From the sequence record NC_048196.1: DNA of 64,000 nucleotides; one strand, given 5' to 3'. The translations under genes were made by a program, and so were the position numbers. The notes under the pieces are model-generated. The model was not told the origin of the DNA and did not search any database. It worked only from the letters and a program-made list of their open reading frames with translations. Shown one piece after another: positions 4,467-10,663 of this stretch; the first letter of the stretch is position 1, and every line of letters starts with the position of its first letter. This DNA is from Escherichia phage vB_EcoM_Schickermooser.

Positions 4467-5097
4467 TATTTACCAACAAATAGAAGCATACGAAAATGCC
4501 ATCTACTTAAATATAGGTGGCTTCCTTCAAGAATTAGTGGGGTTGCCAGTCTATGTTATGGATAAGCCATTCATTAAACCGGATACTCCTTACCTAGCAC
4601 TACGTATTATCACTTCCAGCGATTCTGGAGGTTGGTCTTACCGAAGTTCTATTCAAAATGATATGTATTCCTACGAGATGGATAATACCTACGAGATTGA
4701 ACTTGTAGCCTATCGTGGAAGACCTACCACTTTGATGAGCTATGTTCTGGCTGCTCTCCGTGGTGCAGAGGAATTAAAATACAAACATCTCTATTCTAAA
4801 GGTCTTGGTTTTTTAGGAGCCTCTAATATAGCTCAAGCCAATACAATTGTAGACGGAGATAAGACTGAATTAAGAGCGCGTATGGTTATGACGTTCAACA
4901 CTCGCATGAGTATTGAAGATATTGCTACTACACCAATAGAAGCAATCAACATGCACATCCGTTCATTCAGAGATAGTTACAATGATCCTATCCCTTTAGA
5001 TTTAATTCTAAACAGGGTTTATGCAATTACTTTGGTTCCAGGCGAATACTCGTCAGTTAATCAAAATGGATCATTATTTAACAACCCTACCGAATAA
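4438..5097 (+). CDS. hypothetical structural protein (tail terminator/neck candidate)
   Basis: 219 aa ORF immediately upstream of sheath gene. Confidence 0.4.
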   Translation: MEQKEETLANIYQQIEAYENAIYLNIGGFLQELVGLPVYVMDKPFIKPDTPYLALRIITSSDSGGWSYRSSIQNDMYSYEMDNTYEIELVAYRGRPTTLMSYVLAALRGAEELKYKHLYSKGLGFLGASNIAQANTIVDGDKTELRARMVMTFNTRMSIEDIATTPIEAINMHIRSFRDSYNDPIPLDLILNRVYAITLVPGEYSSVNQNGSLFNNPTE

Positions 5098-5131
5098 ACT
5101 CATTGGAATTAAGTTTCTAACAGGAGCATAA

Positions 5132-6505
5132 ATGGCAACTTTTCGTGAAAAGGTAGCAACCGTAACTTTACTGTATGGTGCTACATCAATTCGTGAAACC
5201 CAGTTCGATATTCCCCTGATCCTTACAGGTCAGAACGTAACTGGCGAAGCGATTCAATATTACTCTTCTTCCGATGCACTTTTGGAAGCAGGTTATGGAT
5301 TAAATGATCCAGCGTATATTATGGCAGTCAAACTGTTTAACGGTTTGTTCCCACCAGATCAAGTTATGGTTGGTAAGCGTGAAGTTACAAACTTTACTCT
5401 AACTCCAATCGTAGAAGATAGTGCAACTTACACAATTACCATCAAAAATGGTACCAAGAAAAAAGAATTTAAATTCATTGCTGATGACACTGCAACTGCA
5501 CAAGAGATTGTAGTTGGTCTGACTGAAATGATCAATGCAGATCTTGTTTATGGCCCACTGTTTACAGTAGCTAACAACGGCGCTGCAATGACTTTCACTC
5601 CAGTAGAAGGTAAGTTTGGTTCTATTGACAGCACAGGTTTCACTCAAGAAACTGTCTATGCTAATGCTATTACGGAAGATATTGCTGCTCTGCATGATAT
5701 TGATAGTAGCTGGTTCTGGACCCTTTCAGATTCCCATGAAACAGAAGATATTCTAGCTTTGGCTGCATGGGTAGAAGAGAATGATAAAGTTTACTTCTTC
5801 TCTAGTTCTGAACCTGGAATTAAAACGAAAGCAGAAGATAACGTTCTGGAACGACTGAATGATCTCGGTTATAATAACACTTGCTTTGCATTGTGGATGA
5901 CCGATGCAGATTCTGTATTCCCAGAAGCAGCAGTTGTTGGTGCTATCTGTTCTCGTCAACCTGGTTTAACTACCCTTCACGGTAAAACACTGGTAGGTGT
6001 AGAGATCGAGAAACTGGATCAGACTTCGGAAAACAATATTGTTCAACAGAACGGTAACATCTATCGTAAAGAGCATGGAACTCTGTTCTATCGTGATGGA
6101 TTGATGGTTAGCGGTTTCTTTGTTGACTATGTTGTTCATGCTTTGTGGTTTAAAGCTCGCACAGAAGAATCACTGTTTACACTGTTTAAACAACAGTCTA
6201 TGCTGGGTGGTGGTGTTCGTGCTACTTCAAACGGTCTAGCTTTGATTCGACAAGCTGTTCTGGCTAACCCGATCCAAGTAGGTATCCTCAACGGTTCCAT
6301 CGCTAATGAAGTTGTTACTTCTGAAGAGACTGGTTTGCGTGTCGATCTGAAACCTATTGTTTATATTCCTTCTCGTGCCGATATGACCGATGCGCAAATC
6401 AATGCTCGTCTGGTTGATGGGATGAAGATTGAATATGTTTACGCTGGCTTCTTCCATTACGTTAAAGTTCAGGTCAACGTCCTGACTAACCGTACTGCAA
6501 ACTAA
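5132..6505 (+). CDS. tail sheath protein
   Basis: 457 aa, strong RBS, followed by ~160 aa tube gene, chaperone pair and tape measure (canonical contractile-tail order). Confidence 0.7.
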   Translation: MATFREKVATVTLLYGATSIRETQFDIPLILTGQNVTGEAIQYYSSSDALLEAGYGLNDPAYIMAVKLFNGLFPPDQVMVGKREVTNFTLTPIVEDSATYTITIKNGTKKKEFKFIADDTATAQEIVVGLTEMINADLVYGPLFTVANNGAAMTFTPVEGKFGSIDSTGFTQETVYANAITEDIAALHDIDSSWFWTLSDSHETEDILALAAWVEENDKVYFFSSSEPGIKTKAEDNVLERLNDLGYNNTCFALWMTDADSVFPEAAVVGAICSRQPGLTTLHGKTLVGVEIEKLDQTSENNIVQQNGNIYRKEHGTLFYRDGLMVSGFFVDYVVHALWFKARTEESLFTLFKQQSMLGGGVRATSNGLALIRQAVLANPIQVGILNGSIANEVVTSEETGLRVDLKPIVYIPSRADMTDAQINARLVDGMKIEYVYAGFFHYVKVQVNVLTNRTAN

Positions 6506-6506
6506 T

Positions 6507-6535
6507 ACGGCGGGGGTTAAGCCCCCGTTATCAAA
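6507..6535 (+). terminator. hairpin between sheath and tube genes (weak terminator/attenuator)
   Basis: CGGGGG-TTAA-CCCCCG stem-loop; only a short T tract after it. Confidence 0.45.
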
Positions 6536-6551
6536 ATAAAGAGGATCTATA

Positions 6552-7031
6552 ATGGATAAAATGCTTACTGGCGTAATGGCCTACGACCCATCTCAAGTTA
6601 TCCTTTCATTAGGTGGTTGGGAACCGTGGGGTTTTGCGGCTGATACTAAAATCGTTATTGCTAAATCTAACGATATTATCAACCCTTATTCAGGGACTGA
6701 TGGGGACGTTTCATTAGCTTTGAGTCGTAACCGTTTGGGAACACTCACAATGTCTTTGCAACGCACATCTCCAGCTAACGAAGTACTTGCAACATATGCA
6801 CAAACAATGTATTCTACTCGTCAAGTAGCATTCAGTGTTTACTTGGAAGACCCACGTGGCTATTACATTAGCACGATTGGATGGATTCAAAGTCAGCCTG
6901 AAGATACTATTGGCGAAATGATTACAGAGAACCAATGGGTTATTGGTCTTAAAGATGCAAGCCTTCTGCGTAATGAAGTTGGTGTAGGTTTGAGCACCCT
7001 TAACTCAATCTCTGCTCTGACAATTCAATAA
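6552..7031 (+). CDS. tail tube protein
   Basis: 159 aa ORF directly after sheath gene. Confidence 0.6.
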   Translation: MDKMLTGVMAYDPSQVILSLGGWEPWGFAADTKIVIAKSNDIINPYSGTDGDVSLALSRNRLGTLTMSLQRTSPANEVLATYAQTMYSTRQVAFSVYLEDPRGYYISTIGWIQSQPEDTIGEMITENQWVIGLKDASLLRNEVGVGLSTLNSISALTIQ

Positions 7032-7036
7032 TAAAT

Positions 7037-7060
7037 AAAGGGCAGAAATGCCCTTTTTTA
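7037..7060 (+). terminator. rho-independent terminator after tube gene
   Basis: AAAGGGCA-GAAA-TGCCCTTT followed by TTTTTTA. Confidence 0.7.
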
Positions 7061-7077
7061 TCATTAGAGAGGAAAAT

Positions 7078-7560
7078 ATGTCACAAGAACAAGATAACAC
7101 AATTCAAAAATATGCTCGACCAGAAGAAGTAGTTGAGATTCCGTTAGATGGAAACAGATCTGTTACTTTCCGTATTATGAAGTGGAGTCCATCTAAAGTG
7201 TTTGACAGGATTCCAGAATTAGGTAGTGTTCTGGTTGTTCCTATGACTATGTATAGCACAGCAACAATGTCCGCAGACGAAGACCTTGAGTCACGTATTG
7301 CTATGGCACTGATCCAACTTTTTGCAGGTTTGGAAGAAAAGAATTTAACTGTCTTTTTGCGTAAAATTTTAGATGAGGTTTATACCCAAGACGGTTATAA
7401 CGTTGCAGAAAATTTTGATGAATTATTTATGGCTCACCCAGAACTAGTGTTAGATCTTACTGCTAAAGTTCTGGAGGTAAACTACGGCCCTTTTTTCAAA
7501 CGAGGTTTCGGAAAACTGTTCACACAGCTTCAGGCGATGACGAGTTTAGCAGCAAATTAA
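7078..7560 (+). CDS. tail assembly chaperone (G-like)
   Basis: ATG at 7078 with GAGAGG RBS (track start 7048 is inside terminator); located between tube and tape measure; contains slippery heptamer. Confidence 0.55.
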   Translation: MSQEQDNTIQKYARPEEVVEIPLDGNRSVTFRIMKWSPSKVFDRIPELGSVLVVPMTMYSTATMSADEDLESRIAMALIQLFAGLEEKNLTVFLRKILDEVYTQDGYNVAENFDELFMAHPELVLDLTAKVLEVNYGPFFKRGFGKLFTQLQAMTSLAAN

Positions 7561-7826
7561 CACCTGCGATTGAACATGCTATCGACACAGCAACGAAAAC
7601 CCTTACTTTGAAGTGGTATGAGGTTATTCTTTGCAAAGTCGTTAAAGATACCTCGGAAACACTGAAAACATTGGATAACTACGGTGTAGATTATCTTTTA
7701 AAACTATATGAGTATTTAACATACGAAGAGTATGTTGAAGCCATGTATGTTAAAGACACTTCAATAAAGAGAAAACATCAAAACCAGACAAATAAAATGT
7801 CAGATTTGTTTAAGAAACTTGTTTAA
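7467..7826 (+). CDS. -1 frame extension of tail assembly chaperone (GT-like fusion C-terminus)
   Basis: ORF in the -1 frame relative to 7078..7560, overlapping its 3' end and ending just before the tape measure gene; no independent ATG/RBS (track start 7608 is TTG). Confidence 0.5.
   Translation, partial: SSGGKLRPFFQTRFRKTVHTASGDDEFSSKLTPAIEHAIDTATKTLTLKWYEVILCKVVKDTSETLKTLDNYGVDYLLKLYEYLTYEEYVEAMYVKDTSIKRKHQNQTNKMSDLFKKLV
7491..7497 (+). other. candidate -1 programmed ribosomal frameshift site (TTTTTTC)
   Basis: X XXY YYZ heptamer T TTT TTC in the zero frame of the chaperone ORF; the -1 frame is open from 7467 to 7826. Confidence 0.5.
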
Positions 7827-7846
7827 TCCAACACGAGGAACATACT

Positions 7847-9835
7847 TTGTTAGAAATTAACGCCTCCAGAATTAGTAACGTGGTTACGTTTAAGGTGGAC
7901 AAGAACAGTCTCAAGGAAGCAAAAGATGCCGTGTTGAGTGTTCAGAAGTTTGCAAATAAAATGCAACCCACTATGAACATGACCAAGTTTAGACAACAAA
8001 TGAAAGAGATTGAGCGTGAACTTAAGAAAGCTCAAACTCAAAGTCAAAAACCTATGCGAGCACCTACTCCCGCCGGAGCGGGTGCTCCTGTAGGAGGATC
8101 TGGTAGACCTAGAACTCCTAAAACCCCGCAAGGAAGAGAAGAAGAAAAAGCTCGTAAAGCTGCTGAACGCGAAGCTAAAGCAGCAGCACGTAGGGAAGAT
8201 TTAGGTAATCTTCGTTTGCAGAACTTTAACTACAGAGCAAGAGCATTTAGTAAAGCCAGTCCTGGCGCTATGCAAGAAGCTAGGGACGTTATGGGTAAAG
8301 CTGTAGAGCAATACAAAAAGGGTGAAATAACTCTTCAACGTATGAACCAAGCTCTTGCTCACCAGTTGGATGCTTTACGCAGATCTCATCGTGAAAAGAA
8401 TGCTGAAATAGAAGACGAGGTTCGCGGTCGTCGCCGTATTCGTAGAGAGCTAGAAGCAGAAGCTAAAATGCGTATACGTATGCGAAATCGTGAACTTAGA
8501 GATATAGAACGCAACCGTAAGCGTGAATTAGCTCAACAGAAACGTGATCGTGATCGTAGATACGGACAATTAAAAGAAGGTGCAGCAGGTCTTAATCCAC
8601 GCATGATTGCATCCTCTTTGATAGGTGCTGGGCTGTTTGCAGGTGGTTCTGTAGTTGGTAACACGTTGATGAATACTAACGAAAGAATTAAACTTGTAAG
8701 TCGTGGTGCTGAAAACGTTCAGACAAACGCCAACGCTATTTTGGCAATGACAGCTTGGGGTGAACAGAACGGTGTAGACTCTGCAAATATTATTAAATCA
8801 ATAGATAATATTAAAGACGTTCGTGAACGTCTTGGTAATACCGTTTTAGCTGCAAAGTGGAATGAGAAAGAAGGGAAGTGGAAAGGCGGTGATAATGGCA
8901 TAACTGACATTATGAACTTGTTTGGATGGAATCCAGAACAGCTTAAACCTTTACAGAACGATCCTTTAGCTTTTATTCAGGCTACTGTTAATGAAGGTGA
9001 GCGTCGAGGTATGAACTCTGCTCAAATCGGGCGACTTCTTGAAAACCTTGGTGATGACCTTATGCACTACCAACGTATGTTTAGTAAAAACGGCGAAGGG
9101 TATAATGAAGTATTGAAAATGCTTCAAAGAACAGGTGCAACATTAACTCAAGAACAAATAGATGCTTCTAAAGAGTTTACTCGTTTTGCTGCAACAGTTC
9201 AGCTTGTAGGTCAAGGTATGCAGAACCACTTCTTAGAGGGTTTTGTGAAAGCCTTACCTAAAGATGATTCTTGGTTGGATAACGTTAAAGTGCTAGATCA
9301 GTTTGCCAAAGATTTAGGTGAAGAACTCGGTAAGACAACAGTTCAATTAGGAGGTTTTGCTAAAGAATTAGGAGATGGCTTCGGATCTTTTACCAATTGG
9401 CTTAAAGAAACATTCCCAGATACATTCGGAGACAACACAGATCCTAATAAATCTATGGCACAAAAAGCATACGAGGCAACGCAAAGTGGAGACAGCAATC
9501 CTGTAGCAGATTGGTTGTACAATTTAACAGGTATTGATACACAAGACATTGGTCGTATGTGGAGAGGAGAACAAACAAGGACACGTGCTTTTGGATTTGG
9601 TAATCCTCTTGAAGATTTACGTGAATCAGCCTATACACCTAACGTAAGTTTGGCTCGTAATCAACCTGTTGTTGAGAATACGGTAGCAATACCAAGTGAT
9701 CTTATCAAAGTTACGATCAGCCCTTCTTCAGAGTTTGGAAATATTCTTGATGCAAGAATTCAAAATAGCGGAAATAGCATTTTCCAACGTTTGTCTCTTT
9801 CAACTCTAAGTGGACAATCTAACACTGGTGGTTAA
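7847..9835 (+). CDS. tail tape measure protein
   Basis: 662 aa, long charged helical regions (R/E/K-rich), position after chaperone pair; TTG start with GAGGAA RBS. Confidence 0.75.
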   Translation: MLEINASRISNVVTFKVDKNSLKEAKDAVLSVQKFANKMQPTMNMTKFRQQMKEIERELKKAQTQSQKPMRAPTPAGAGAPVGGSGRPRTPKTPQGREEEKARKAAEREAKAAARREDLGNLRLQNFNYRARAFSKASPGAMQEARDVMGKAVEQYKKGEITLQRMNQALAHQLDALRRSHREKNAEIEDEVRGRRRIRRELEAEAKMRIRMRNRELRDIERNRKRELAQQKRDRDRRYGQLKEGAAGLNPRMIASSLIGAGLFAGGSVVGNTLMNTNERIKLVSRGAENVQTNANAILAMTAWGEQNGVDSANIIKSIDNIKDVRERLGNTVLAAKWNEKEGKWKGGDNGITDIMNLFGWNPEQLKPLQNDPLAFIQATVNEGERRGMNSAQIGRLLENLGDDLMHYQRMFSKNGEGYNEVLKMLQRTGATLTQEQIDASKEFTRFAATVQLVGQGMQNHFLEGFVKALPKDDSWLDNVKVLDQFAKDLGEELGKTTVQLGGFAKELGDGFGSFTNWLKETFPDTFGDNTDPNKSMAQKAYEATQSGDSNPVADWLYNLTGIDTQDIGRMWRGEQTRTRAFGFGNPLEDLRESAYTPNVSLARNQPVVENTVAIPSDLIKVTISPSSEFGNILDARIQNSGNSIFQRLSLSTLSGQSNTGG

Positions 9836-9842
9836 TAAAATA

Positions 9843-9866
9843 CCTCGCTTCGGCGGGGTTTTTTCG
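9843..9866 (+). terminator. rho-independent terminator after tape measure gene
   Basis: CCTCGC-TTCG-GCGGGG hairpin followed by TTTTTTCGTTT. Confidence 0.7.
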
Positions 9867-9872
9867 TTTCCC

Positions 9873-9902
9873 TTGACACGAAGTTTCTATATGTGTTACA
9901 AT
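9873..9902 (+). promoter_or_regulatory. sigma70-type promoter with extended -10 (TTGACA-N18-TGtTACAAT)
   Basis: Perfect -35 TTGACA at 9873-9878, TGn at 9894-9896, -10 TACAAT at 9897-9902. Confidence 0.6.
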
Positions 9903-9912
9903 AATCAATATG

Positions 9913-9935
9913 GGAAGATCTTGCATCTTCCTTTT
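9913..9935 (+). promoter_or_regulatory. 5' leader stem-loop with T tract (attenuator/antitermination target candidate)
   Basis: Perfect 7-bp inverted repeat GGAAGAT-cttgc-ATCTTCC followed by TTTT, ~10-30 nt downstream of predicted TSS and upstream of ATG 9962. Confidence 0.4.
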
Positions 9936-9961
9936 GGCATTATCATTACTACGAGGTTATC

Positions 9962-10663
9962 ATGGCAGCAATGACTCCACAACAGTCGGTGAGAGCCGTC
10001 TATAAGGCAGAACAGGAAATCAACTCTACCGAGAATAAAAATACCTCGGCATCTACTGTAAAGGGTGATAATGGTTTCTGCATTTTAGCAAGTGTTTATA
10101 ATAGTTCAAGTGATCAATACATTCAAAACTTTAAAGCAATTACTTTCGATTCGGTCCCTGAAGTAGGTGTAACTCGTGAGGCAGATGTTACAAGTTTTCC
10201 AGTAGAATCAGGATCGGATGTAAGTGACCACGTTCAAATAAAAAACAACAGATTTAAACTTTCAGGTATAATTACCGAAACACCAATTCGGCTTATGCGA
10301 GATCAATTATACAGTGCAGGTGTAAATGGGGCAAGGATTTCTCAAGCAATAGAATATCTAGATCAAATATTTGAGTCAAGACAACCAATAGTTCTTTTGA
10401 CAGAACACAGGACTTTTGAAAATGTTATTCTGAAAGGGTACTCTTATGATTATAAATCTGAATTTGCTATGCAATTTGATTTAGAGTTCGAACAAATTCG
10501 TCTAGTCTCTAAGGCCACTACTAATGCTATTGCTGTAAAAACAGCACCAAATAAGTCAACTGGTGGTGATGTGAAAGGTCAAGTCGCTTCTAATGGTCCT
10601 AAGTCAGATATTACAGTAAGAACTGCTGAAGCTACTAATACCCCAACAAACAACGGAGGTTAA
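9962..10663 (+). CDS. hypothetical tail/baseplate protein
   Basis: 233 aa, first gene after tape measure. Confidence 0.4.
   Translation: MAAMTPQQSVRAVYKAEQEINSTENKNTSASTVKGDNGFCILASVYNSSSDQYIQNFKAITFDSVPEVGVTREADVTSFPVESGSDVSDHVQIKNNRFKLSGIITETPIRLMRDQLYSAGVNGARISQAIEYLDQIFESRQPIVLLTEHRTFENVILKGYSYDYKSEFAMQFDLEFEQIRLVSKATTNAIAVKTAPNKSTGGDVKGQVASNGPKSDITVRTAEATNTPTNNGG

What the first reader, a model, noticed from the sequence alone, without database searches (positions are those of the whole stretch)
7467..7826. Programmed -1 frameshift in the tail assembly chaperone gene
The heptamer T TTT TTC (7491-7497) lies about 21 codons before the stop of the G-like ORF, and the -1 frame is open from 7467 to 7826, ending 20 nt before the tape measure gene. 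The 72-aa track ORF (7608..7826) has no ATG or RBS of its own. This is the conserved G/GT arrangement of tailed phages; worth confirming because the slippery sequence is an unusual all-T variant.
Basis: partly seen in the sequence, partly recalled or inferred. Interest (0 to 1): 0.4.

Follow-up and report, generated by a model that had tools for sequence, protein, structure and literature searches.

The report
Tail chaperone G/GT -1 frameshift site
This is the ordinary, widely conserved programmed -1 ribosomal frameshift that lets a contractile-tailed E. coli phage (phAPEC8) make a short and a long form of its tail assembly chaperone; the signal is real but unannotated in public records and unremarkable.

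Summary
The window is Escherichia phage phAPEC8_ev052. Its tail module runs sheath, tube, chaperone (7078-7560, Pfam Phage_TAC_15), a -1 frame open 7467-7826, then the tape measure gene at 7847. T TTT TTC (7491-7497) is in the X XXY YYZ phase. It overlaps a second valid heptamer, C CCT TTT (7488-7494).

Comparative evidence is decisive. In 59 related loci (46 unique alleles; chaperone identity down to about 28%) the in-phase T TTT TTC is invariant at its synonymous positions. The -1 frame stays open for about 102-127 codons after the heptamer. No start codon is conserved in it. Protein conservation in the -1 frame begins right after the heptamer.

More distant relatives keep the architecture but use other heptamers (G GGA AAG, A AAT TTT). 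That favours ribosomal slippage over transcriptional slippage.

No 3' RNA structure was found. An SD-like GGAGGT lies 12 nt upstream and may stimulate the shift.

The predicted products are G (160 aa) and GT (249 aa). The "unusual all-T" claim is wrong: U_UU.U_UU.C is in the most efficient E. coli motif class, and poly-T sites were recently proposed for sister clades. This is a new member of a known kind, of low interest, useful mainly as an annotation fix.

The parts
5132..6505 (+). Tail sheath gene (synteny context)
   Evidence: phrog_205 tail sheath, E 2e-100; Pfam DUF3383. Annotated 'Sheath protein' in LR597654.1.
6552..7031 (+). Tail tube gene (synteny context)
   Evidence: phrog_280, E 3e-35; weak Pfam KPP10_Orf10 hit (24.4 bits, just under the 25-bit cut-off). 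Annotated 'Major tail protein'.
7037..7062 (+). Terminator-like hairpin plus T run between the tube and chaperone genes
   Evidence: 8-bp stem AAAGGGCAGAAATGCCCTTT followed by TTTTAT. It probably lowers transcription into the chaperone and tape measure genes (inference).
7078..7560 (+). Tail assembly chaperone gene, zero-frame product G (160 aa)
   Evidence: Pfam PF21822 Phage_TAC_15, 84.3 bits (cut-off 22), E 1.3e-23; phrog_3840 tail assembly chaperone, E 2.8e-55.
7473..7478 (+). Internal Shine-Dalgarno-like GGAGGT, 12 nt 5' of the heptamer (candidate stimulator)
   Evidence: Position. Anti-SD duplex -10.6 kcal/mol. 25 of 35 unique alleles carry some SD-like element 11-13 nt upstream. Its function is inferred by analogy with dnaX.
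7488..7497 (+). Slippery decamer CCCTTTTTTC, made of two overlapping in-phase heptamers: C CCT TTT (7488-7494) and T TTT TTC (7491-7497)
   Evidence: T TTT TTC is invariant in 46 of 46 unique alleles.
7497..7826 (+). -1 frame T segment: 109 codons read after the slip (7497-7823) plus the stop at 7824-7826. It contains the annotated 72-aa 'hypothetical protein' ORF at 7608-7826.
   Evidence: phrog_16039. The conserved RFR and SSLxW.DY motifs lie upstream of any conserved start codon.
7078..7826 (+). Predicted GT fusion: join(7078..7497, 7497..7826), 249 aa, junction ...VLEVNYGPFF|QTRFRK...
   Evidence: tblastn of the fusion always matches relatives as two pieces in two frames. The exact fusion sequence is absent from a 15-billion-protein collection.
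7847..9835 (+). Tape measure protein gene (synteny context)
   Evidence: phrog_16051 tail length tape measure protein, E 0. Annotated as such.

Best explanation
During translation of the phAPEC8 tail assembly chaperone mRNA, most ribosomes read 7078-7560 and make G (160 aa).

A minority slip back one nucleotide. This happens when the P and A sites hold tRNAs on CCT-TTT or TTT-TTC within CCCTTTTTTC (7488-7497). Both slips give the same protein. These ribosomes then continue in the -1 frame to 7826 and make GT (249 aa). GT consists of G residues 1-140 plus a 109-aa T extension.

By analogy with lambda G/GT and P2 E/E+E', the shared G domain would coat the tape measure protein, which is encoded immediately downstream. 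The T domain would recruit the tail tube protein. The fixed frameshift rate would set the G:GT ratio, and neither protein would end up in the virion.

The slip appears to rely on the intrinsically efficient U-rich heptamers, possibly helped by the GGAGGT element 12 nt upstream pairing with 16S rRNA. There is no 3' hairpin or pseudoknot.

What is shown: the anatomy, the family assignment and the evolutionary conservation. What is inferred: that the fusion is made, its ratio to G, the roles of the two domains, and any stimulatory role of the SD-like element.
For: (1) Position and family. The order sheath-tube-chaperone-(-1 ORF)-tape measure and the Pfam/PHROG chaperone assignment are established.

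(2) The heptamer is in the correct phase and the -1 frame is open from 24 nt upstream of it to 20 nt before the tape measure gene.

(3) Conservation of the site. In 59 loci (46 unique alleles) from Stephanstirmvirinae and Vequintavirinae, taken from GenBank and IMG/VR, the in-phase T TTT TTC is always present and the -1 frame continues for about 102-127 codons after it. Chaperone identity to the window falls to about 28%.

(4) Synonymous sites are frozen.
- The two Phe codons are TTT in 45/45 and TTC in 45/45 alleles.
- Another invariant Phe column uses TTT 14 / TTC 31.
- The preceding codon always ends in T even though its amino acid changes: CCT Pro 18/18, TGT Cys 28/28, and AGT Ser in Aeromonas phage 4L372D.

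(5) Dual coding starts immediately after the slip.
- The -1 frame motif RFR is conserved.
- It fixes zero-frame third positions: GGT 45/45 and TTC 40/40.
- The -1 frame motif FRxPSG is shared by rV5 and Rheinheimera phage Barba.

(6) No start codon is conserved in the -1 frame. In several alleles the first ATG/GTG/TTG lies at extension codon 58-83. That is downstream of the most conserved T-domain motif, SSLxW.DY.

(7) Heptamer turnover with the architecture kept: Barba has G GGA AAG and Vibrio S4-7 has A AAT TTT at the equivalent place.

(8) U_UU.U_UU.C and C_CC.U_UU.U both belong to the H_HH.U_UU.Y class, listed among the most efficient in E. coli (PMC4066793).

(9) In the Pectobacterium CB7 record, sheath, tube and tape measure are marked 'MS/MS confirmed' but the two chaperone ORFs are not. 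This fits non-virion chaperones.
Against: There is no direct protein evidence.

No 3' stimulatory structure was found. The z-score is +0.4 against shuffles, and RNAalifold predicts 0 pairs over 35 alleles. Efficiency is therefore unknown and could be low.

The FF dipeptide is itself conserved in the zero frame, which explains part of the nucleotide conservation (though not the synonymous positions).

The alleles are phylogenetically related, so counts such as 45/45 are not independent events.

One of the two peptide patterns used to fetch the IMG/VR loci contained NYG[CP]FF. That biases the sample towards loci that keep FF, but not towards particular codons.

The SD-like element overlaps the conserved codons L-E-V and is weak or absent in about 10 of 35 alleles.
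Confidence: 0.88

Rival explanations
1. Transcriptional slippage. RNA polymerase occasionally adds one extra U while copying the T6 run. Standard translation of that minority mRNA then gives exactly the same GT protein (GGC CCU UUU UUU CAA reads G P F F Q).
For: The site is a homopolymeric T6 run. The product would be indistinguishable from the frameshift product (inference). [quoted passage not shown] 2022, cited). UUUUUUU runs are under-represented in E. coli genes, possibly for this reason.
Against: Six T is shorter than the runs of about 8-9 usually needed for efficient bacterial RNA polymerase slippage (my own knowledge, Baranov et al. 2005). Homologous loci use G GGA AAG (Barba) and A AAT TTT (Vibrio S4-7). 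Those sequences are tandem-slippage heptamers and are not homopolymers. The run is always in the X XXY YYZ phase. Z is always C, so the run never extends to T7.
Confidence: 0.07
2. The downstream ORF is an independent small gene, as annotated in GenBank. It would start at TTG 7608 (72 aa, LR597654.1) or at the ATT-start 85-aa version annotated in ESCO13, perhaps by reinitiation after the G stop.
For: Public records annotate it this way. The 72-aa protein is in databases as 'hypothetical protein'. PHROG 16039 is built from such 72-aa entries.
Against: There is no SD before 7608. Annotated starts differ between relatives, and no start codon is conserved. In KB57, the Erwinia phage pEp_SNUABM_01, CB7 and others the first possible start lies after the conserved core of the domain. 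Conservation in the -1 frame (PAIEHAIDTATKTL in the window, RFR right after the heptamer) extends upstream of 7608 and even upstream of the G stop.
Confidence: 0.03
3. Chance coincidence or sequence artefact: a random heptamer next to a fortuitously open frame, or an indel error in a T run that splits one gene.
For: TTTTTTC alone is common (18 in the window). ORFs of at least 100 aa contain 85 in-phase heptamers. Homopolymer runs are prone to sequencing errors.
Against: The same two-frame arrangement is present in 357 GenBank records and in independent metagenome contigs. No in-frame fusion appears in any of the 47 listed records where both halves matched. Only this heptamer in the window is followed by more than 100 open -1 codons.
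Confidence: 0.01

Closest known systems
Phage lambda G/GT tail assembly chaperone frameshift (Levin, Hendrix & Casjens 1993; Xu, Hendrix & Duda 2004, 2013, 2014)
   Same: Two overlapping ORFs lie between the major tail gene and the tape measure gene. [quoted passage not shown] No 3' structure is required. The downstream ORF lacks its own start. The review summary is in PMC5009743.
   Different: The heptamer is T TTT TTC (plus overlapping C CCT TTT) rather than G GGA AAG. The phage has a contractile tail. The chaperone belongs to Pfam Phage_TAC_15 and shows no detectable sequence similarity to lambda gpG. A possible upstream SD-like stimulator is present.
Phage P2 E / E+E' frameshift in the FETUD tail operon (Christie et al. 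2002; my own knowledge, reference listed)
   Same: Contractile-tailed phage with the same gene order, sheath-tube-chaperone(-1 extension)-tape measure. It uses a poly-T slippery heptamer.
   Different: The P2 site is T TTT TTG. The proteins are not detectably homologous to those here. This comparison rests on recall and was not tested with the tools.
Proposed conserved -1 frameshift with a GTTTTT motif in the chaperone genes of Vandenendeviridae (Pakpunavirus Adele) and Andersonviridae (PMC12846349, Dec 2025)
   Same: These are sister clades of Vequintavirinae and Stephanstirmvirinae with orthologous virion modules. The downstream 'hypothetical protein' is reinterpreted as the C-terminal part of the long isoform. 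There is an invariant poly-T motif at the 3' end of the short-isoform gene. The evidence is the same kind: an uninterrupted -1 frame across divergent alleles.
   Different: That paper analysed Vandenendeviridae and Andersonviridae, not the phAPEC8, phi92 or rV5 groups. Here the run is six T, giving a perfect X XXY YYZ heptamer, and in Stephanstirmvirinae it is preceded by CCC, which creates a second heptamer.
E. coli dnaX gamma/tau -1 frameshift (Larsen et al. 1994; my own knowledge)
   Same: An internal SD-like sequence lies 10-14 nt 5' of the heptamer. Here GGAGGT is 12 nt upstream.
   Different: dnaX also needs a strong 3' hairpin and shifts at about 50-80%. No 3' structure exists here. The SD-like element is only partly conserved.

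Membership tests
G/GT-type tail assembly chaperone with programmed -1 frameshift | A pair of overlapping ORFs located between the major tail (tube) gene and the tape measure gene | tested here: met
   Tube 6552-7031, G 7078-7560, -1 ORF to 7826, tape measure from 7847.
G/GT-type tail assembly chaperone with programmed -1 frameshift | The second ORF is in the -1 frame, overlaps the 3' end of the first, and lacks its own initiation signals | tested here: met
   The -1 frame is open 7467-7826 and overlaps G by 94 nt. There is no SD before TTG 7608. No start codon is conserved among 46 alleles.
G/GT-type tail assembly chaperone with programmed -1 frameshift | A canonical slippery heptamer X XXY YYZ in zero-frame phase inside the overlap | tested here: met
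   T TTT TTC at 7491-7497 and C CCT TTT at 7488-7494. Both are in the efficient E. coli class H_HH.U_UU.Y.
G/GT-type tail assembly chaperone with programmed -1 frameshift | The arrangement and the slip site are conserved among diverged relatives | tested here: met
   59 loci, 46 unique alleles, synonymous sites invariant. The heptamer is replaced by G GGA AAG or A AAT TTT in more distant relatives.
G/GT-type tail assembly chaperone with programmed -1 frameshift | The first ORF's product belongs to a tail assembly chaperone protein family | tested here: met
   PF21822 Phage_TAC_15, 84.3 bits against a cut-off of 22; phrog_3840, E 2.8e-55.
G/GT-type tail assembly chaperone with programmed -1 frameshift | The fusion protein is actually made at a low fixed ratio, is required for tail assembly, and is absent from virions | not testable with these tools
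   Only indirect evidence exists. In the CB7 record the flanking structural proteins are marked MS/MS-confirmed and the two chaperone ORFs are not.
dnaX-type stimulated -1 frameshift | An internal SD-like sequence 10-14 nt 5' of the heptamer | tested here: inconclusive
   GGAGGT at 7473-7478 is 12 nt upstream with a -10.6 kcal/mol duplex. 25 of 35 alleles carry some SD-like element at 11-13 nt, but it overlaps the conserved L-E-V codons.
dnaX-type stimulated -1 frameshift | A stable 3' hairpin or pseudoknot 5-9 nt after the heptamer | tested here: not met
   MFE -11.2 kcal/mol against a shuffle mean of -12.1 (z +0.41). RNAalifold predicts 0 pairs in 35 alleles. In the 12 Stephanstirmvirinae-like alleles it finds only a marginal 5-pair helix about 85 nt downstream.
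Programmed transcriptional slippage | A long homopolymeric run (typically at least 8-9 A or T) whose reading phase is irrelevant | tested here: not met
   The run is T6 and never T7 in 46 alleles. Distant homologues use non-homopolymeric heptamers. The length threshold comes from my own knowledge.

The most novel reading that the evidence does not exclude
The frameshift may not be driven by the heptamer alone. It could use an unusual combination of three elements with no 3' RNA structure. First, two overlapping slippery heptamers in one decamer (CCCTTTTTTC) would give ribosomes two consecutive chances to slip. Second, a dnaX-like upstream SD:anti-SD interaction (GGAGGT, 12 nt 5') could stimulate the shift. 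Third, the invariant GGTTTCG element 6-9 nt downstream could act at the RNA level rather than merely reflecting dual coding. Together these would make an efficient 5'-stimulated frameshift cassette specific to the Stephanstirmvirinae/Vequintavirinae lineage.
Probability: 0.2. Interest if true: 0.35.

Novelty: new member of a known kind. Interest (0 to 1): 0.15.

Why it matters
The main value is annotation. In the phAPEC8-, phi92- and rV5-like records I inspected, the gene is not joined. The 3' part is variously called an independent 'hypothetical protein', with inconsistent and sometimes non-canonical starts, or is left unannotated. The 249-aa GT product is absent from a 15-billion-protein collection.

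These phages are widely used in phage-therapy and biocontrol work, so a correct structural-gene inventory is useful.

The comparative series is a clean natural example of slip-site turnover. The heptamer T TTT TTC is kept through Pro, Cys and Ser codons, and is replaced by G GGA AAG or A AAT TTT in more distant relatives, all under a conserved recoding architecture.

It does not change the understanding of tail assembly or of frameshifting.

Tried and rejected
- **3' stimulatory structure.** Single-sequence folds of 7498-7570 and 7460-7640 are no better than shuffles. RNAalifold on 35 and on 12 alleles finds nothing near the site. Rejected.
- **Independent initiation of the 72-aa ORF.** Rejected: no SD, and no conserved start codon.
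- **+1 frame alternative.** That frame is closed.
- **Naturally in-frame G-T fusions in GenBank phages.** tblastn of the fusion gave two pieces in every one of the 47 listed records where both halves matched. The exact fusion is not in the protein collection.
- **Prior description for this group.** Literature searches for phAPEC8, rV5, Phapecoctavirus, Justusliebigvirus or Stephanstirmvirinae with 'frameshift' found nothing specific. Only the sister-clade paper turned up. Searches for 'TTTTTTC' with chaperone or slippery terms found nothing relevant.
- **NCBIfam.** No family for G or T.
- **PDB by sequence profile.** Only a marginal hit, 5ir0_A 'Uncharacterized protein ORF19', E 0.011. Not followed up.
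- **Structure prediction.** Not run. The alignments made here contain locus-derived sequences that the tool would refuse, and the fold would not bear on the frameshift question.
- **P2 paper.** The Christie et al. 2002 paper could not be retrieved.

Full report
**1. Origin of the window**

Region 5000-10000 is 100% identical to Escherichia phage phAPEC8_ev052 (LR597654.1; Phapecoctavirus, Stephanstirmvirinae). It is 99% or more identical to about 30 other phage records.

**2. The observation**

Gene layout:
- The sequence and ORF list show a contractile-tail module.
- The genes are sheath 5132-6505 (phrog_205, DUF3383), tube 6552-7031 (phrog_280), and a 160-aa ORF at 7078-7560.
- Next come a -1 frame stretch ending at 7826 and the tape measure gene from TTG 7847 (phrog_16051).
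- The ORF finder's 170-aa version starts at an ATG (7048) inside a terminator-like hairpin (7037-7056 plus a T run).
- The real start is ATG 7078, behind AGAGGA.

Frames:
- Translation of the three frames confirms that the -1 frame is open from 7467 to the stop at 7824-7826.
- The +1 frame is full of stops.

The heptamer:
- TTTTTTC occupies 7491-7497 and the zero-frame codons are CCT TTT TTC. This is the X XXY YYZ phase, with 20 sense codons before the G stop.
- The preceding bases make a second in-phase heptamer, C CCT TTT (7488-7494).
- Slipping at either heptamer gives the same protein: G residues 1-140 (...VLEVNYGPFF), then QTRFRKTVHTASGDDEFSSKLTPAIEHAIDTATKTLTLKWYEV...KKLV. The total is 249 aa.

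The 72-aa ORF that GenBank annotates (7608-7826) begins with TTG and has no SD-like sequence in the 20 nt before it.

**3. Chance**

- The heptamer alone means little. There are 18 copies in the window against 31 +/- 4.6 expected, so it is actually depleted.
- ORFs of at least 100 aa contain 85 in-phase XXXYYYZ motifs.
- Open -1 frames are short in this 39% G+C genome. The median is 6 codons, and only 0.6% of codon positions have 100 or more open codons ahead.
- This is the only heptamer in the window followed by more than 100 open codons. It also lies in the single gene between tube and tape measure.

**4. What the gene is**

- The 160-aa product matches Pfam PF21822 (Phage_TAC_15; 84.3 bits, cut-off 22) and phrog_3840 'tail assembly chaperone' (E 2.8e-55).
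- The -1 segment matches phrog_16039, an unknown-function family built from the 72-aa annotated fragments.

**5. Comparative test**

*Sampling.*
- tblastn of G found 357 phage records. These include Stephanstirmvirinae (Phapecoctavirus, Justusliebigvirus/phi92-like, Klebsiella phages) and Vequintavirinae (rV5, Seunavirus, Mydovirus, Certrevirus, Henunavirus, Avunavirus).
- I fetched 16 representatives and 44 IMG/VR loci.

*Result.*
- In every enterobacterial-phage locus (59 loci, 46 unique alleles, G identity to the window down to about 28%) an in-phase T TTT TTC sits 20-35 codons before the G stop.
- After the heptamer the -1 frame continues for about 102-127 codons (the full open stretch is about 109-149 codons).
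- In most loci it ends 11-67 nt before the tape measure gene. Larger gaps occur in FKP3, CR9 and CB7 (section 11).

*Synonymous positions are frozen.*
- Phe-Phe is TTT (45/45) and TTC (45/45).
- Another invariant Phe column uses TTT 14 / TTC 31.
- Nearby Tyr, Gly and Glu columns do vary.
- The codon before the Phe pair always ends in T although its amino acid differs: CCT Pro 18/18 and TGT Cys 28/28, and AGT Ser in Aeromonas phage 4L372D.

*Conservation in the -1 frame starts at once.*
- Directly after the slip the -1 frame encodes a conserved R-F-R.
- This fixes zero-frame third positions: GGT 45/45 and TTC 40/40.
- In a 35-allele nucleotide alignment of the 100 nt from the site, the only invariant blocks are TTTTTTC and GGTTT.
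- The T-domain core (consensus SSLxW.DY...LK..EYLD) is conserved in all alleles.

*No conserved start codon exists in the -1 frame.*
- In KB57, the Erwinia phage pEp_SNUABM_01, CB7, L028, L036 and L054 the first ATG/GTG/TTG is at extension codon 58-83, downstream of that core.
- In the window, conserved residues (PAIEHAIDTATKTL) lie upstream of the annotated TTG.

*Slip-site turnover.*
- More distant relatives keep the architecture but change the slip site.
- Rheinheimera phage Barba has the lambda heptamer G GGA AAG two codons further on. It is followed in the -1 frame by VFRIPSG, compared with rV5 RFRKPSG.
- Vibrio phage S4-7 has A AAT TTT.

*Annotation status.*
- tblastn with the fusion matched as two pieces in two frames in every one of the 47 listed records where both halves were found. 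No in-frame fusion was seen.
- The exact fusion sequence is absent from a 15-billion-protein collection, whereas G and the 72-aa fragment are present as 'hypothetical protein' or 'tail assembly chaperone'.
- None of the records inspected carries a joined CDS.

**6. Stimulators**

7498-7570 folds at -11.2 kcal/mol against -12.1 +/- 2.3 for shuffles (z +0.41). The 181-nt context gives z +0.60.
- RNAalifold predicts no pairs over 35 alleles. Over the 12 Stephanstirmvirinae-like alleles it gives only a marginal helix about 85 nt downstream.
- Upstream, GGAGGT (7473-7478) lies 12 nt before the heptamer. That is within the 10-14 nt range known for dnaX (my own knowledge).
- 25 of 35 unique alleles have some SD-like element 11-13 nt upstream. 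The element overlaps the conserved Leu-Glu-Val codons and is weak in the Certrevirus group. I treat it as a candidate only.

**7. Mechanism**

The best explanation is tandem -1 ribosomal slippage on the U-rich heptamer(s), giving G and GT. It is lambda-like in needing no 3' structure.

The functional roles are inferred from lambda (review PMC5009743). G would coat the tape measure protein. T would recruit the tube protein. Neither would be in the virion.

One indirect observation fits. The CB7 record marks sheath, tube and tape measure as MS/MS-confirmed but not the two chaperone ORFs.

**8. Rivals**

- **Transcriptional slippage.** It would give the identical protein, so mass spectrometry cannot separate the two. 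It is disfavoured by the short T6 run, which is never T7, and by the non-homopolymeric heptamers in homologous loci.
- **Independent initiation.** Disfavoured by the lack of an SD or a conserved start, and by conservation upstream of the annotated starts.
- **Chance or sequencing artefact.** Excluded by the comparative data.

**9. Comparison with known systems**

- This is the G/GT arrangement of Xu, Hendrix & Duda (2004).
- Among contractile-tailed phages it parallels P2 E/E+E', whose site is T TTT TTG (recalled from memory; the paper could not be retrieved).
- The heptamer is not unusual. Sharma et al. 2014 list H_HH.U_UU.Y among the most efficient E. coli motifs and find U_UU.U_UU.C in IS elements.
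- A December 2025 paper proposes, on the same kind of evidence, a conserved -1 frameshift with an invariant GTTTTT motif in the chaperone genes of Vandenendeviridae and Andersonviridae. It describes those clades as relatives of Vequintavirinae and Stephanstirmvirinae.
- The Vequintavirinae sequence GGC TGT TTT TTC contains that motif, so the site is probably ancestral to the whole assemblage (inference).
- I found no paper describing it for the phAPEC8, phi92 or rV5 groups.

**10. Verdict**

This is a new, unannotated member of a very well known kind, of low interest. The practical outcome is a corrected annotation: join(7078..7497, 7497..7826), with ribosomal slippage.

**11. Items noticed along the way**

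- A terminator-like hairpin lies between the tube and chaperone genes.
- GenBank 'Campylobacter phage' records carry rV5-like or phi92-like chaperone genes, some 100% identical to the coliphage gene.
- The WPEC1 record loses collinearity with the window inside the T segment, at about window 7700.
- In CB7 and phiTE-like phages about 1.1 kb with extra ORFs separates the T segment from the tape measure gene.
- There is a weak PDB hit to 5ir0_A.

Noticed in passing
window 7037-7062: A terminator-like hairpin (AAAGGGCAGAAATGCCCTTT plus a T run) lies between the tail tube gene and the chaperone gene. The ORF finder's ATG at 7048 lies inside it, so the 170-aa ORF version is spurious and 7078 is the real start. 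It probably attenuates transcription into the chaperone and tape measure genes relative to sheath and tube.
   Followed up: partly
GenBank MG0656xx records (e.g. MG065652.1, MG065682.1, MG065644.1, MG065639.1): Records named 'Campylobacter phage' with host Campylobacter jejuni carry rV5-like or phi92-like chaperone genes. Some are 100% identical to the rV5 gene. This suggests mislabelled hosts or contaminating coliphages.
   Followed up: no
L004 (PV659873.1 Escherichia phage WPEC1), locus ~2123 = window ~7700: The WPEC1 record (161 kb) is collinear with the window through the chaperone gene, then diverges completely in the middle of the T segment. After that point it has minus-strand hypothetical ORFs and a tRNA-Gln. 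This is a likely assembly chimera or rearrangement.
   Followed up: partly
L013 (Pectobacterium phage CB7) 2223-3369; also L017 (CR9) and L007 (FKP3): In CB7 and phiTE-like Certrevirus, about 1.1 kb with two extra ORFs sits between the end of the T segment and the tape measure gene. CR9 has a 226-nt gap and FKP3 a 144-nt gap. Tight T-to-tape-measure spacing is therefore not universal.
   Followed up: no
window 7504-7511 (GGTTTCGG) and homologous positions in all loci: The GGTTT(C) block 6-9 nt after the heptamer is invariant across 35 alleles. It is explained here as dual coding (zero frame G-F-G, -1 frame R-F-R). An RNA-level role was not excluded. Its spacing to the heptamer differs by one codon between the two subfamilies.
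   Followed up: partly
PDB 5ir0_A: A profile of the chaperone family gives a marginal hit (E 0.011) over nearly its full length to a 161-aa 'Uncharacterized protein ORF19'. This may be a solved structure of a related chaperone. Not verified.
   Followed up: no
L010 (rV5, NC_011041.1) 1851-2219; L019 (Vibrio S4-7) 1818-2138: The rV5 and S4-7 annotators called the whole -1 ORF as a separate gene that overlaps the chaperone gene by about 100 nt. In rV5 it starts 3 nt before the heptamer, at a non-standard codon. The overlap was evidently seen but not interpreted as a frameshift.
   Followed up: no
window, whole: TTTTTTC is under-represented in the window: 18 observed against 31 +/- 4.6 expected from dinucleotide shuffles. 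This is consistent with general avoidance of slippery U-runs.
   Followed up: no
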